This document shows, piece by piece, positions 5,301 to 11,300 of a stretch of 64,000 nt of DNA; positions within the stretch are counted from its first letter, which is position 1, and each line of letters starts with the position of its first letter. Made by a program: the position numbers. Origin of the DNA: Podarcis gaigeae (lineage: Eukaryota); the NCBI GenBank assembly GCA_964106915.2, contig OZ066916.1; one strand, written 5' to 3'.

Positions 5301-8300
5301 GTTTATTCTGTGTACAATTCTGCCAGCAATTACCATCACCATCTGTTACTTGGGTATAGCCTGGAAGGTTCATAAAACCTATCAAAAGATGCAGAACTTC
5401 AACAGGACTTCAAATGCAGCAAAGCTGGAGAAGAAATTGACATTGGTGGGTATGTGTTGTTGTGAGCAGAGTATTTTTGTATTTTAAAGAGCAATAGGAA
5501 CACAGTGTTCCTTTGACTCAGACATTGATTCTGTCCCTACAGATTGAAAATTATTGTCAAAATATTGGGGAAATGCCAAAGCACTTATGGATGCTGTGGA
5601 CTGGGCTGTTTGTGTGTGTTTGCCTTCATGTATGGTTTGTGTTCCATTTGAGTTGCAGACATTGAGCAACTCCTCTGTTTTTCAGTTGTTAGATTCATTG
5701 GTATGAAATCTTATTGTATTAATGCGAAATAATATTAATATTCAAAATATTTATACCCCACACATCTGGTTGGGTTTTCGCAGCCACATACATACTGGGG
5801 ACTAACTTAATGATGAACCTGTATACTGTAAGACTCTCAGATCTTGCAATACATGGGCTCATAGAGGAACCATGTGGTATATATATTGCTATTGTATGAG
5901 ATGTTGAGGTCCTGCCATATTTTCTTCTATAGGACTATAATTTGAAACAGGTGACATTCCATTATGATGTAAAGCATCTGATAAACACAAAGGATGCTGT
6001 TCTTAATTTCTTATCCTGATCTTGTGTTATTTTATTCTGCTGGAGGGCTGCTGTAGTGCAGAGGATACTGCTTTTGGGTCTTAGGATAAAATGGACAGCC
6101 TAAAATGAATGCAAGAGCCAATTGTTTAAATATCTCTTAAATGTTAAAGCACTAATCCTTCATTTCTCTCTCACCGATTCAAAATAACAGATAGAGAAGG
6201 AGAAAATATAAAAAGCCAGCCAGTAACTAACTATAAGTGGTTGTTTTTACAGATGGCTGTACTGATCAGTGTGGGATTCCTCAGCGCATGGACACCATAT
6301 GCCGCAGTCAGCTTCTGGTCAATATTTCACTCCAGTGAATCAATACCACCCATCGTTACCTTGTTGCCATGTCTTTTTGCTAAATCCTCAACAGCCTACA
6401 ACCCTTTCATTTACTATGCTTTCAGCAAAACTTTCCGGCGTGAAATTAAGCGCCTCCAGTGCTGCTGTAGTCAGAAAGTTTACTTTAGCACCAAGCATAC
6501 CAATAGCCATGTGTCAGTGATTTGGTCAGGAAGGGATAACGCGCACATTTCTTCATTCAGAAAGACAGATAGTGGAGAAGTTCCAAATCCATCCGCTGCA
6601 GCTGCAGAAGTCTTATTTGAAAACGTTGCTCTAAAGTCCAGATCATGAAATCTCCCAGGGAAACACTGCAAGGGCAGTAATTCCTAGGAAGTTTATAATA
6701 AACTGCTTGCAGGATAATTCCGAGGTCTCTGTTCTTTAAAAAAAAGGACCTGCCGGCAAGAACTGAGGAATCTCAATGAATTTTGAGCACATGGACTAAG
6801 TTAGAGTTTACTATACTGTATTAATAGCTGGCAGAGGAGGTATTTAGGCAGTTAAAAAGAGATTGTAATGTCAGTGAACTTGGCATTTGTTTTTGTGCTT
6901 TTGTTGGACTGTATGGGATGCTGAGCTCAGGTGTCAATGATGGAGTCTCAAGAGGCACAGGCGTCTTGAAGAATAATAAGAAAAGACCTTTGCTTAACGG
7001 GCTGTTAACACCTCCCCCTTCGATACTTCTATTAAGGCTGTTGAGCAAGAACCTTACAAAAAATGGACTTTTCATAAAAGGGTCGCTCTATCCGTCTTGT
7101 GCATGTCATCTCAGTACTGGATTTGTGAGGTCACAGAACTGGAAACCGCCCACCAACTTCAGACTCTACAGAGGCTATTGAGAAGGAAAAGAAAAAGGTA
7201 GACCAGGCATAGGCAACCTTCGCCCTCCAGATGTTTTGGACTACAATTCCCATCATCCTTGACCACTGGTCCTGTTAGCTAGGGATCATGGGAGTTGTAG
7301 GCCAAAACATCTGGAGGGCCAAAGGTTGCCCGTGCCCGTCTGGAGGCAGACCACCAGGGGTAGGAAATGCATATTTGTCAATCTGACAAGCAAACAAAGC
7401 TAGGACAACGAGACTGAACTGAACTGAAAGGGCAAGAGGCATGTGAATAAACAGTATGAAACAGCAGGACATAATTTCACCACCTTTCTGTATCAGTAAC
7501 ATTTATTTTAAATTGTAATTTGCATTTCCAAAGATCTGAAATGTATTTCAGATATAATGCCGTCTTATATGCAAAAATTTTAAATTTACTCATTTCATTT
7601 AGATTCTTTGATAGATCTTACATACATATGTAATAATATTGCAGATGATTTCCCACTTTCTTAGAAAGCATAAGGCAACACCAGAAATTGTAGATGATTT
7701 AAATTTTTTATCAACAAATCACAATGCATCAACACAAACTATAAGATATAAGGTTTGTTATGAGACAGAGGTTTACAGAGATTGCTGCCTCATTTCCAAG
7801 CATTTCTCGATATCATCAAGAACTTGGACAGCTGCCTTTGGGATTCGGGTTCCAGGGCCAAATATATTGGAAACACCAGAGGCATACAAGAAGTCATAAT
7901 CCTGTGCAGGAGAAAAACAGACATAAAACATACCGTACATGCAAACTTTGTAAAGTAAAATTCTGCAGAACATATGCTAAAAGAGCAGAGTTTAGCGATG
8001 GCAGGTCAGGAGGTAGCACACATGGAGAAGGGAAAATAACTTGGTATGCTAGCTATGGGGGAAAACAGTGATGCTCTCACCTACGCAAACCCCGCCATGT
8101 GTGCAAAGTCCTAGTGACTACAAGTTCAAGCAATCTCTGCTCTAGGTGTTATCCTATGTAACATAAAGAATGAAATCATCAAAAGTGGTGAACATTTTCA
8201 CCTCTGCTCCAAGACAACCAGAGACTTGTGGCTCTATACAAATCTTTTGCCAGGTGCAACAATTATACCAAGGTCAAGAGATTCAAAGCAGAAAAGCAAA

Positions 8301-11300
8301 TTCTACCAGCCCTTTCTTCCCTTCTTCTTCCTAACTATTTAAACCAATTCATGAACTAAGAACTTCTACACTGACCACTAATAATGAAACATATGTTGTA
8401 GATATTTCTCCACATTTATTATGCTATTTTTGTGATATACAAATGACATAAGAATACTTGGTACAGTATACTTATTTGTATAACAATATTCTTGTTTATA
8501 ACCCCACCCCACCCCACCCCACCCCCCAGAAAAAAACAAATTCTGGAAGAAGAAAAATTATATAGTTTCTATTTCAGTAAAGGAAACTGGTCCCTTTTTT
8601 CTTCATTTCTTAAAATGTTTATGAATATTTTTAAATTTAAAAAGTGATATTTACATTATTTGATTATATTGGCAGTTTTCGAAAGCTTTTGGGAGACTGC
8701 TTCTCAACTGCATTGTTCTGTGAACCTTAAACCTAGAAACTACAGCGCTTTCCCAAATTTGCTGAAGGATTTCCACATTTCAAAAGCTAGATTCTATTTT
8801 AAAAGCCTTTCAATGGTGTTCATTTGCCTGGAGGAGGAGGAGGAAAAAGTAGATGGAGACCCCACCTCACTGGGAACAATTTAATCATCTCACAACAAGC
8901 CATCTTGTGATGGTGGTGCACAGTACCTGGGGAGGAATGGCGCCTCCACACATGAGGAGAATGTCTGGGCGGCCAAGGGACAAGCCCTTCTGTGGCCAGC
9001 AGCCAAGGTGCTCGCCCCCACGCAATGCACATCCGCATCTACCGCCTGCTGGGCCACTTCACGGGGTGCCTAGGAAGAGAAAGCAAAGGAAGTGTCAAAC
9101 AATATGGGAAAGAAGAATGCATAAAACCTAACACTGCATGCAGACCCAGGCTTCTTTTTTCACAGAGAAGAGCGACAAGAAAACACTAGGCACCAGCATG
9201 CACCGCTCAAGGCTGCTACTGGCATTTAGGTTAGACAATATGGGCGCCCAGAAAGTAGAGTACAGAGAGGAACATTGCCACCTATCGATGACATCTTCCA
9301 ACTCGGGAATCTGTAAAATCATCCTAGTACAATATATTCTGATAGTTACCTTTTGTGTGAACAGTAAATTGAAACAATAGGTGCAAATATTTTTTTTAAA
9401 ATTTATTTTACAAATTTATAAATTGCTTAAAAGCCTGAGGCCCACAAAGCTGTGTACCAAAATCTAAAATACCAAAAAAAAAAAAAAATGTTGTGGCTGC
9501 TTCTGGGTTCCCTCCTGCCTTGGATATATATTCAGGTTTTATTTAAAGAACGGTTTTCCTTAGCTTCCTAATCCCCACCCCTTTGCCCCCCAGTGAAGGA
9601 AATCAGGCTGAGAGACTGACTTCCCATAGCGAGGTTCACAGCTGAATGCCTTTCCCCCATCCCAAACATCCCTCTAGTCCCACACCTGGACCCCCAGGAG
9701 CCGGGGAGAGATGCTCTGGACCACAGCCTCCCCCCCCCCCAATACCTGGCAGGGGCTGCTTCCAGGGCTGGGCCCAGCAACGGCCTGGGGCGGCGCCTGC
9801 TGAGAGGCAGCGGGACAAGGCTGCGCTTCCACCTCATCTCCGCAACCTTCAAGGAAAGACACAGAAGCCCAACTGGACAAGAGCCAAGAACCCTTAACGA
9901 TTGATTAAGGTGCCCCGAGGCCGCCCCTCTCTTCCTCCTCTTCCTCCAGGTCTTCCAGGATGAGCTCTTCTGAAAGGGAAAGAAGAGAAGGCTGCCAGTT
10001 AGAGGGGCTTCTTACACACACACACACACACAGAGAGAGAGAGGGACTTTCTGAAGACATCCCTAGAAACAGACATTACCTTCTGGGGGACTCTCCTTCG
10101 TTTTTGCCTGAGCCTGCAGGGAAAGAAAGAGCCACATGGGATGTGATGCTCTACAGCTCAAAACAGGCCTCAGACAGAGACCTTTCCTGAGAAATCTGAG
10201 GGACTGGAATCAGCTTCTATGGGCTGAAAGGTTTTACCTTGGAGGTCCTTTCAAAAAGGGTCCTGCAGGGGGGGCGGGCGGGGGGCGGAGAGGGGGACTC
10301 GGGGACGGGGCAAACTTTATTTTTCTTTGCCATCCGCGAAATGGCTTTTCGCAATCTGGTAAACCTAGAAAAGAAAGAGCAAAATGTGAGAAATGGGGCT
10401 CACAGTTCATCCTCTCCGGATCTACTTCCCAAAACTGCTTTTTGCATTCATGCCTCTGAGCTCCCTATCACCCCAGAATTCAGTTGCACATCAAGGCACC
10501 CCAAGAAGAAGGAGAACACATTGAGACAGAATTTGACTCTGAAGGTTAATGGGCAAAATTTAGGCCACAACTTTATTGAGGACAGCAATGTGAGTGGTAT
10601 TGGGTTTCATTGTTGAGGGTTTTTTCAGTGATTTTACCTCAGGAAATAGGCCCCTGAAACGGACTTTGGGCACACATACAACAAAAACCATAATAACACT
10701 AATAACACAGTTTGACAATTCAGATTTGGATACACTGATATACCTATGACTACACCTTTTTAACAATATTTTCCTGCCTATCTCTCCTCCCCCTACTTCC
10801 CACCGTTATCCGCCTTATCGCTTAAATATTCCTTCCAGATTTCTTCATATTTATCCATTCTTAATTTGTGTCCACATGCAATTTGTTTGTATGTAGCTAG
10901 TCTGTCCATATTATCAATTCATGTGCTCAATGGAATCTTTTTGCGGCTCTTCCAAATCATCAAAACAAGTTTTTTTGCTTCTAATATAGCACGGTACACC
11001 CATTTGTTTTGACCCCTTGTAATCTCCCATGTTTCCAAAATATAATTTAGAATTAAATTTAATTCCGCTAAATAACAATTTCTTTTTATTACTCTTGCTA
11101 TAAATATCCTCACCTCACTCCAAAATGATCTTATTATCGGGCATTTAATCATCATATGTACTAAGTTCGCATTTTTACTCCCACATCTGCAGCAGTTGTC
11201 CGCGCTTGTTATTTTCTTCTGGTATAGTTTTGCTGGAGTCCAGTGGACTCTGAATATTATTTTCTGTTGAAGAAGTCTTAGTCTTAGATCCACAGAGGCT

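What the first reader, a model, noticed from the sequence alone, without database searches (positions are those of the whole stretch)
7773..9069. Orphaned, frameshifted 3' end of an essential enzyme gene (MMUT)
Seen: only the last two MMUT exons are present, tail-to-tail with OPN5L2. The penultimate exon has lost 25 nt, and no other MMUT exon (e.g. the KMGQDGHDRG cobalamin-binding exon) was found by eye in the 55 kb upstream, which holds LGALSL instead. Known: MMUT is the conserved B12-dependent mutase of propionate catabolism. Inference: the functional gene lies elsewhere and this is a duplicated stub at a breakpoint. True MMUT loss in this lineage would be remarkable, but is less likely.
Basis: partly seen in the sequence, partly recalled or inferred. 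Interest (0 to 1): 0.7.

Follow-up and report, generated by a model that had tools for sequence, protein, structure and literature searches.

The report
Decaying MMUT gene stub in lizard
The last two exons of the vitamin-B12 enzyme gene MMUT sit cut off and decaying beside an intact opsin gene in a lacertid lizard genome, marking an old chromosome break; whether a working copy lies elsewhere could not be checked here.

Summary
Window 7773-7901 (-) is an intact last MMUT exon. Window 8927-9069 (-) is the penultimate exon, 143 nt where 168 are expected, so it is frameshifted. None of 9 sauropsid MMUT proteins finds any other exon in the 64 kb.

The window is from a lacertid lizard, not human: its OPN5L2 exons are 289/295 identical to Podarcis muralis. 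OPN5L2-MMUT adjacency is the ancestral sauropsid order, and the opsin here is under constraint. The stub is therefore the piece left at MMUT's original position.

Upstream lies LGALSL, which belongs to another conserved block (UGP2-VPS54-PELI1). A 305-bp inverted, already decayed copy of an OPN5L2 exon at 14976-15280 probably marks the junction. The break is therefore evolutionary and not a misassembly.

The stub evolves without constraint: it has indels and 3 replacements at columns invariant in 36 vertebrates. A 101-aa Podarcis lilfordi "MMUT" consisting of the same two exons has 4 such replacements.

Most likely a rearrangement that duplicated its breakpoint left this stub, and a complete MMUT lies elsewhere. 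That step is inferred, because no lizard assembly could be searched. True MMUT loss in lacertids is not excluded (about 0.1).

The parts
7773..7901 (-). MMUT last exon (exon 13 by the human numbering, which is recalled): 42 codons plus stop (7775-7773), open and well conserved
   Evidence: no replacement at a column invariant in 36 vertebrates
7502..7507 (-). AATAAA poly(A) signal about 266 nt after the MMUT stop; an aataaa for OPN5L2 on the + strand lies about 50 nt away (7446-7451), so the two genes end almost back to back
   Evidence: read directly
7902..8926 (-). MMUT intron 12 (1025 nt) with GT...AG kept, so this is not a processed copy
8927..9069 (-). MMUT penultimate exon (exon 12), 143 nt instead of 168. 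The frame breaks within 8981-8991. The leftover also reads G-L-V-P in the third frame (8987-8976), which suggests a +1 nt and a -26 nt event and not one 25-nt deletion (inference).
9070..14975 (-). Probable retained 3' part of MMUT intron 11, with later insertions: an L1-like ORF2 tail at 10922-11626 (-) and a SINE-like repeat at 13500-13868. Assigned by contiguity only.
14976..15280 (-). Orphan inverted copy of OPN5L2 3938-4259 (193 nt of intron end plus 129 nt of exon): 293 matches, 11 mismatches, a 1-nt insertion and an 18-nt deletion. Its edges are sharp. Probable templated insertion at the rearrangement junction.
3938..4259 (+). Source of the orphan copy, inside the live OPN5L2 gene
4131..6510 (+). 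OPN5L2 coding exons 4131-4427, 5116-5445 and 6253-6510: 99/99, 108/110 and 82/86 identical to Podarcis muralis opsin-5-like, with no replacement at invariant columns. The conserved first coding exon was not found in the window.
25308..32633 (-). LGALSL (galectin-related protein) exons at 32442-32633 and 25308-25454. A CpG-rich stretch at about 33.4-34.8 kb is probably its 5' end.

Best explanation
This is a dead 3' fragment of MMUT: exons 12 and 13, intron 12, the 3' end, and probably about 5.9 kb of intron 11. It was left at the gene's ancestral position, tail-to-tail with a working OPN5L2, in a lacertid lizard. An old chromosomal rearrangement cut MMUT in intron 11 and joined the OPN5L2/MMUT-3' block to the 3' flank of LGALSL. 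During repair a 305-bp piece of nearby OPN5L2 was copied in, inverted, at the junction. The two exons have drifted since then: indels in exon 12 and replacements at otherwise invariant residues. They encode only the last 98 residues of the B12-binding domain and cannot make an enzyme. Shown: the fragment, its damage, its relaxed constraint, the constraint on OPN5L2, the orphan inverted copy, and the foreign neighbour. Inferred: the rearrangement duplicated its breakpoint region (staggered breaks or a replication-based event), so that a complete MMUT travelled with the other side and still works elsewhere in the genome. Also inferred: the event is shared with Podarcis.
For: The fragment and its frameshift. 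No other MMUT exon: 9 of 9 queries. The window is lacertid: the best hit of an opsin exon is P. muralis at 95%, and the next is Elgaria at 87%. OPN5L2 is flanked by CDC5L and MUT in sauropsids (Emerling 2017, bioRxiv 10.1101/127654, passages). The opsin here has 0 unique replacements at invariant columns in 295 residues and is 289/295 identical to P. muralis, so this is the real OPN5L2 locus. The stub has 3 unique replacements at invariant columns in 85 residues (T1A, V47L, V52A), plus V19A where one turtle has I. Among 36 named functional MMUTs, 27 have 0, 6 have 1 and 3 have 2 in 98 residues. P. lilfordi carries a 101-aa 'MMUT' made of the same two exons, with 4 such replacements (Q8R, A9S, R42G, R75Q). 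LGALSL identity: 54/64 and 46/49 to chicken GRP 5it6. Its conserved neighbours are ugp2, vps54 and peli1 (PMC10343441 Table 1, passages). The orphan inverted OPN5L2 copy shows 3.6% substitutions and two indels, which implies age, not misassembly. Inverted duplications at 17 of 29 fixed Drosophila inversion breakpoints are explained by staggered breaks (PMC1885836, abstract and passages). That offers a known way for a gene to survive a break while leaving a stub.
Against: No complete lacertid MMUT was seen. Among the best 120 clusters for the Tiliqua enzyme, the squamate representatives are Tiliqua, Gekko, Varanus, Vipera, Crotalus and Pseudonaja only. The orphan copy is not the duplication that the staggered-break model predicts, which would be a second copy of MMUT exons 12-13 at the far breakpoint. 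The window and P. lilfordi stubs share none of their derived replacements, so a common origin is not shown. The break point within 9070 to about 24000 is placed by the orphan copy alone. The first coding exon of OPN5L2 is not in the window.
Confidence: 0.7

Rival explanations
1. True loss: a simple break in intron 11 split MMUT, exons 1-11 lie at the other junction and are dead too, and lacertids (at least this lineage) live without methylmalonyl-CoA mutase.
For: The stub is at the ancestral locus and is disabled. Another lacertid is annotated with only the same two exons, also with damaging-looking changes. No lacertid full-length MMUT surfaced.
Against: The prior is strongly against it. MMUT is present in every other vertebrate sampled, from shark to mammals, and its loss causes severe disease in humans (established knowledge). 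The absence of lacertids from the listings is uninformative because of 90% clustering. Literature searches found nothing either way.
Confidence: 0.12
2. Segmental duplicate: a block holding the 3' parts of OPN5L2 and MMUT was copied next to LGALSL, and the original OPN5L2-MMUT locus is intact elsewhere.
For: The first coding exon of OPN5L2 (24 aa, conserved from turtles to birds) is not found anywhere in the window. The inverted 305-bp copy fits a replication-based duplication.
Against: The OPN5L2 exons here show no decay (0 replacements at invariant columns, no frameshift, 289/295 identical to P. muralis), while the MMUT exons about 1 kb away do. A dead copy of both genes should decay alike. 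Exon 1 may simply lie beyond the window's left end or in the 1869-2068 gap.
Confidence: 0.08
3. Artefact: a chimeric contig, a collapsed haplotype or a private structural variant, with the reference individual's real MMUT being whole here.
For: A scaffold gap lies 2 kb left of OPN5L2. Repeats (L1 and SINE-like) lie between the stub and LGALSL.
Against: There is no gap between 2069 and 64000. The orphan copy has diverged by 11 substitutions and two indels. The exon damage consists of indels plus several amino-acid replacements, not a single slip. An independent assembly of another lacertid yields a two-exon-only model.
Confidence: 0.05

Closest known systems
Functional vertebrate MMUT (e.g. Tiliqua scincoides P0002, 748 aa; human 2xij/8gju)
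   Same: The two exons align to the last 98 residues: 88.9% identity over 45 aa for the last exon and 83% for the two pieces of the penultimate exon, against Tiliqua. Splice sites, intron 12 and a poly(A) signal are kept.
   Different: Residues 1-650 of Tiliqua are absent. These comprise the substrate barrel PF01642 and the first half of the B12 domain, including the stretch read as KMGQDGHDRG in P0002. Exon 12 is frameshifted, and invariant residues are replaced.
Podarcis lilfordi 'methylmalonyl-CoA mutase, mitochondrial', 101 aa (P0009)
   Same: It has the same two exons and nothing else. It is also lacertid and also has replacements at invariant columns (4 of 98).
   Different: Its reading frame is open (no 25-nt loss). 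None of its 10 changes from Tiliqua is shared with the window's stub, and the two differ at 14 of 85 compared residues. Its genomic context could not be seen.
Gene pieces duplicated at staggered-break inversion breakpoints (Ranz et al. 2007, PMC1885836)
   Same: A partial gene sits at a junction between two ancestral gene blocks, with non-repetitive sequence duplicated in inverted orientation nearby.
   Different: That work concerns Drosophila. The predicted second copy of the MMUT 3' end at the far breakpoint was not observable. The inverted copy actually seen is a 305-bp OPN5L2 piece, which fits a templated insertion better.
Exon remnants of lost genes in squamates (Emerling 2017, bioRxiv 10.1101/127654)
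   Same: A few exons remain at the syntenic position, with frameshifts.
   Different: Those are dispensable sensory genes. MMUT is a core metabolic enzyme, and its loss from the genome is not shown here.

Membership tests
Functional methylmalonyl-CoA mutase gene | N-terminal substrate-binding barrel (Pfam PF01642) | tested here: not met
   No hit for residues 1-650 with 9 of 9 MMUT queries. No PF01642 hit among 579 ORF translations scanned.
Functional methylmalonyl-CoA mutase gene | Complete B12-binding domain (PF02310), including the His-bearing loop exon | tested here: not met
   Only the last 98 residues are represented. The preceding exon is absent.
Functional methylmalonyl-CoA mutase gene | Open reading frame through the C-terminal exons | tested here: not met
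   Exon 12 is 143 nt against 168 and needs two frames. Exon 13 is open.
Functional methylmalonyl-CoA mutase gene | Purifying selection at invariant residues | tested here: not met
   3 unique replacements at invariant columns in 85 residues, against 0-2 in 98 for 36 functional proteins. The set was hand-picked (see full report).
Unitary pseudogene (gene lost from the genome) | Disabled copy at the ancestral syntenic position | tested here: met
   Adjacent to a constrained OPN5L2. OPN5L2-MUT adjacency in sauropsids is taken from passages of Emerling 2017.
Unitary pseudogene (gene lost from the genome) | No functional copy elsewhere in the genome | not testable with these tools
   No lizard assembly or transcriptome can be searched here.
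Duplicated gene fragment at a staggered-break inversion breakpoint | Junction of two ancestral synteny blocks next to the fragment | tested here: met
   The OPN5L2/MMUT block abuts the LGALSL block.
Duplicated gene fragment at a staggered-break inversion breakpoint | Second, inverted copy of the same fragment, attached to the rest of the gene, at the other breakpoint | not testable with these tools
   It would lie outside the window.
Processed (retro-) pseudogene | Introns absent, poly(A) tail present | tested here: not met
   Intron 12 (1025 nt, GT-AG) is retained.

The most novel reading that the evidence does not exclude
Lacertid lizards, or at least the lineage of this window and Podarcis, have truly lost methylmalonyl-CoA mutase. 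A rearrangement cut the gene in intron 11, no second copy exists, and propionate, odd-chain fatty acids and branched-chain amino acids are handled by a B12-independent route. This would be the first vertebrate known to lack the enzyme.
Probability: 0.1. Interest if true: 0.85.

Novelty: new member of a known kind. Interest (0 to 1): 0.35.

Why it matters
As it stands, this is a well-resolved example of a gene fragment stranded at an evolutionary chromosome breakpoint in a lizard, with a small inverted templated copy at the junction. That is useful for dating and mapping a lacertid rearrangement, and it is a warning for annotation, since one lacertid already carries a 101-aa 'MMUT' model. It would matter much more if no complete MMUT exists in lacertids. 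That would overturn the assumption that the B12-dependent propionate pathway is indispensable in vertebrates. One tblastn search against public lacertid assemblies would settle it.

Tried and rejected
1. Weak colinear tblastn hits at 9853-9806 and 9780-9745 (MMUT residues 519-534 and 546-557) looked like a decayed upstream exon. They are in different frames, Ala-rich, and have E 3.9 even in a 16-kb search, so they are noise.

2. A simple staggered-break inversion of OPN5L2 plus MMUT exons 12-13, with the true OPN5L2 upstream region to the right of 15280, was rejected. The conserved first coding exon of OPN5L2 is not found there or anywhere else in the window: the best hits for the P0114 N-terminal query, the only rows inside the 40 lines one search printed, have E >= 2.6.

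3. I searched for an upstream exon ending in the 'MPS' codons of the P. lilfordi model followed by GT. There was 1 match, on the + strand at 50945, against 2.06 expected by chance, so nothing was found.

4. Pfam was run on 579 ORF translations: all 319 ORFs of >= 62 aa, 150 of the 156 ORFs of 38-61 aa in 9000-25400, and the ORFs of 40-61 aa in 1-4100, 32600-35200 and 55500-64000. Only opsin, galectin and LINE domains appeared, plus five sub-threshold chance hits. Short ORFs in 4.1-9 kb, 25.4-32.6 kb and 35.2-55.5 kb were not scanned.

5. Rfam gave 0 matches. Tandem repeat search in 7-18 kb gave only two trivial arrays.

7. Literature searches: MMUT plus five lacertid genus names (775 papers hold at least 2 of the 6 terms; none of the 20 listed holds MMUT); mutase + gene loss + vertebrates + pseudogene (1 irrelevant paper); mutase + lizard (8 papers, none relevant by title or abstract); methylmalonyl + lacertid (0); MMUT + squamate (0).
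Full report
**What is there.** On the minus strand, window 7773-7901 is an open exon of 42 codons plus a stop, preceded by a cag acceptor. It is 35 of 42 identical to human MMUT chain residues 698-739 (E 1e-18) and 88.9% identical over 45 aa to Tiliqua scincoides MMUT.

After a 1025-nt GT-AG intron comes window 8927-9069. Its first 26 codons (APREV...AAGH) match chain residues 644-668. Its last 18 codons ([18 protein letters not shown]) match residues 681-698, but in another frame. Twelve residues (36 nt) are expected between these two pieces and 11 nt are present, so the exon is 143 nt instead of 168.

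In the third frame the leftover reads G-L-V-P, which fits the L-V-P of the missing KTLVPEL stretch. I therefore think a +1 and a -26 event is more likely than a single 25-nt deletion. This is an inference.

An AATAAA lies 266 nt past the stop. The exon numbers 12 and 13 follow the human gene as I recall it.

**Nothing else of MMUT is in the window.**
- Nine sauropsid MMUT proteins (Tiliqua, Pseudonaja, Crotalus, Varanus, Gekko, Sphenodon, Dermochelys, Nothoprocta, Carettochelys) each hit only these two exons. All other hits had E >= 0.78.
- A pair of weak hits at 9745-9853 proved to be noise.
- Pfam on 579 ORF translations gave no mutase or B12-domain hit.
- The only N run is 1869-2068. It was not touched.

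**Whose genome.** The window is not human. An OPN5L2 exon finds Podarcis muralis opsin-5-like best (95%; next is Elgaria at 87%). Three opsin exons are 99/99, 108/110 and 82/86 identical to that protein. The MMUT exon finds squamates best (Tiliqua and Pseudonaja at 91%). BovB/RTE-like and CR1/L2-like LINEs are present. I take it for a lacertid lizard other than P. muralis.

All spliced genes were searched exon by exon.

**Where the stub sits.** Passages of Emerling 2017 (bioRxiv 10.1101/127654) state that OPN5L2 is flanked by CDC5L and MUT in sauropsids, so the tail-to-tail pairing is ancestral.

The opsin here is under constraint. Against 27 named OPN5L2 proteins it has 0 replacements at otherwise invariant columns in 295 residues. 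This is therefore the true OPN5L2 locus, and the stub is what remains at MMUT's own position.

**What lies upstream.** On the same strand, exons at 32442-32633 and 25308-25454 are 54/64 and 46/49 identical to chicken galectin-related protein 5it6, that is LGALSL. Table 1 of PMC10343441 (passages) gives ugp2, vps54 and peli1 as its conserved neighbours. That is a different block, so an evolutionary breakpoint lies between 9070 and about 24 kb.

A self-comparison found that 14976-15280 (-) is an inverted copy of 3938-4259 (+). That source is the end of an OPN5L2 intron plus 129 nt of exon. The copy shows 293 matches, 11 mismatches, a 1-nt insertion and an 18-nt deletion. Similarity falls to chance at both edges. 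I read this as a templated insertion made when the break was repaired. It places the junction about 5.9 kb upstream of exon 12. Its divergence shows that the join is old and is not an assembly error.

**Decay.** I aligned the region of the two exons for 36 named, non-human MMUT proteins. I picked these by hand from the 112 and 120 rows. Human rows, most other primates, unnamed records and shorter isoforms were left out.
- 54 of 98 columns are invariant in this set.
- Counting residues that differ where all others agree, 27 proteins have 0, 6 have 1 and 3 have 2.
- The window has 3 in 85 (T1A, V47L, V52A), plus V19A where one turtle has I.
- All of these are in exon 12. Exon 13 has none.

**A second lacertid.** P0009, labelled methylmalonyl-CoA mutase of Podarcis lilfordi, is only 101 aa: MPS plus exactly these two exons. 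It has the highest count of all, 4 in 98 (Q8R, A9S, R42G, R75Q). Its frame is open, and none of its changes is shared with the window. The two differ at 14 of 85 residues, while the neighbouring opsin differs from P. muralis at 6 of 295. This fits two orthologous stubs drifting since about the time the lineages split. Its genomic context could not be seen, so orthology is inferred.

**How it most likely came about.** A rearrangement (an inversion is the simplest) had one break in MMUT intron 11 and the other just 3' of LGALSL. Two versions fit the window equally well.
- In the first, the breaks were staggered or the event was replication-based. The MMUT 3' region was then duplicated: a complete gene went with the moved segment, and this redundant stub stayed behind and decayed. 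Such duplications were found at 17 of 29 fixed Drosophila inversions (PMC1885836, abstract and passages).
- In the second, the break was clean and MMUT was destroyed.

I prefer the first only because the enzyme is present in every other vertebrate that appeared and is essential in mammals (established knowledge). Nothing in the window decides between them.

**What stayed unchecked.**
- No tool here searches a lizard assembly. The genome collection holds bacteria and archaea only and was not used.
- Among the best 120 clusters for Tiliqua MMUT residues 1-640, no lacertid representative appears. This says nothing either way.
- Five literature searches found no statement on MMUT in lizards.
- Supplements were closed. 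The tables of Emerling 2017 may bear on the synteny claim.

**Verdict.** The stub is a real, decaying relic at a real evolutionary breakpoint, which is a known kind of thing. Interest is moderate to low, unless the whole-assembly search shows that lacertids have no complete MMUT.

Noticed in passing
window 1-4130 and 4131: The conserved first coding exon of OPN5L2 (24 aa, MEEHY...LLVI in P. muralis, Elgaria, Varanus, Pogona, Anolis, Tiliqua, turtle and finch) is not found anywhere in the window. 4130|4131 is a strong acceptor (tttcag|GC). The exon may lie left of the window or in the 1869-2068 gap.
   Followed up: partly
window 7010-7178 (+): The extra C-terminal exon of the 378-aa P. muralis opsin-5-like model matches here at only 36/48 identity and needs a frame change, while the other exons are 95-100% identical. 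This tail is probably not a conserved coding exon (most OPN5L2 proteins listed are 346-352 aa).
   Followed up: no
window 44009-46681 (-): An 891-aa open frame of a LINE with a GDSL-esterase-like part, an endonuclease and a reverse transcriptase. It is long enough to suggest a young, possibly active element.
   Followed up: no
window 52919-55412 (+): A fragmented RTE/BovB-like LINE (endonuclease and reverse-transcriptase pieces in several frames).
   Followed up: no
window 1049-1378, 13500-13868, 38803-39212, 48452-48802: Four copies (76-86% alike) of a SINE-like repeat of about 370 bp. One copy lies between the MMUT stub and the orphan opsin piece.
   Followed up: no
window 7206-7336 and 23751-23896: Two related palindromic elements of about 130-146 bp (MITE-like, 90% alike). 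One lies in the short spacer between the OPN5L2 and MMUT 3' ends.
   Followed up: no
window 40135-40350 and 43288-43504: 217-bp inverted repeats, 97% identical and 2.9 kb apart. They may be the ends of a DNA transposon abutting the LINE.
   Followed up: no
window 15500-16400: A CpG-rich stretch, open in all six frames, just right of the orphan opsin copy. It has no Pfam match and may be a promoter island of unknown ownership.
   Followed up: partly
P0009 (Podarcis lilfordi, 101 aa): A public annotation names a two-exon remnant 'methylmalonyl-CoA mutase, mitochondrial'. It is probably a stub like this one and not an enzyme.
   Followed up: partly
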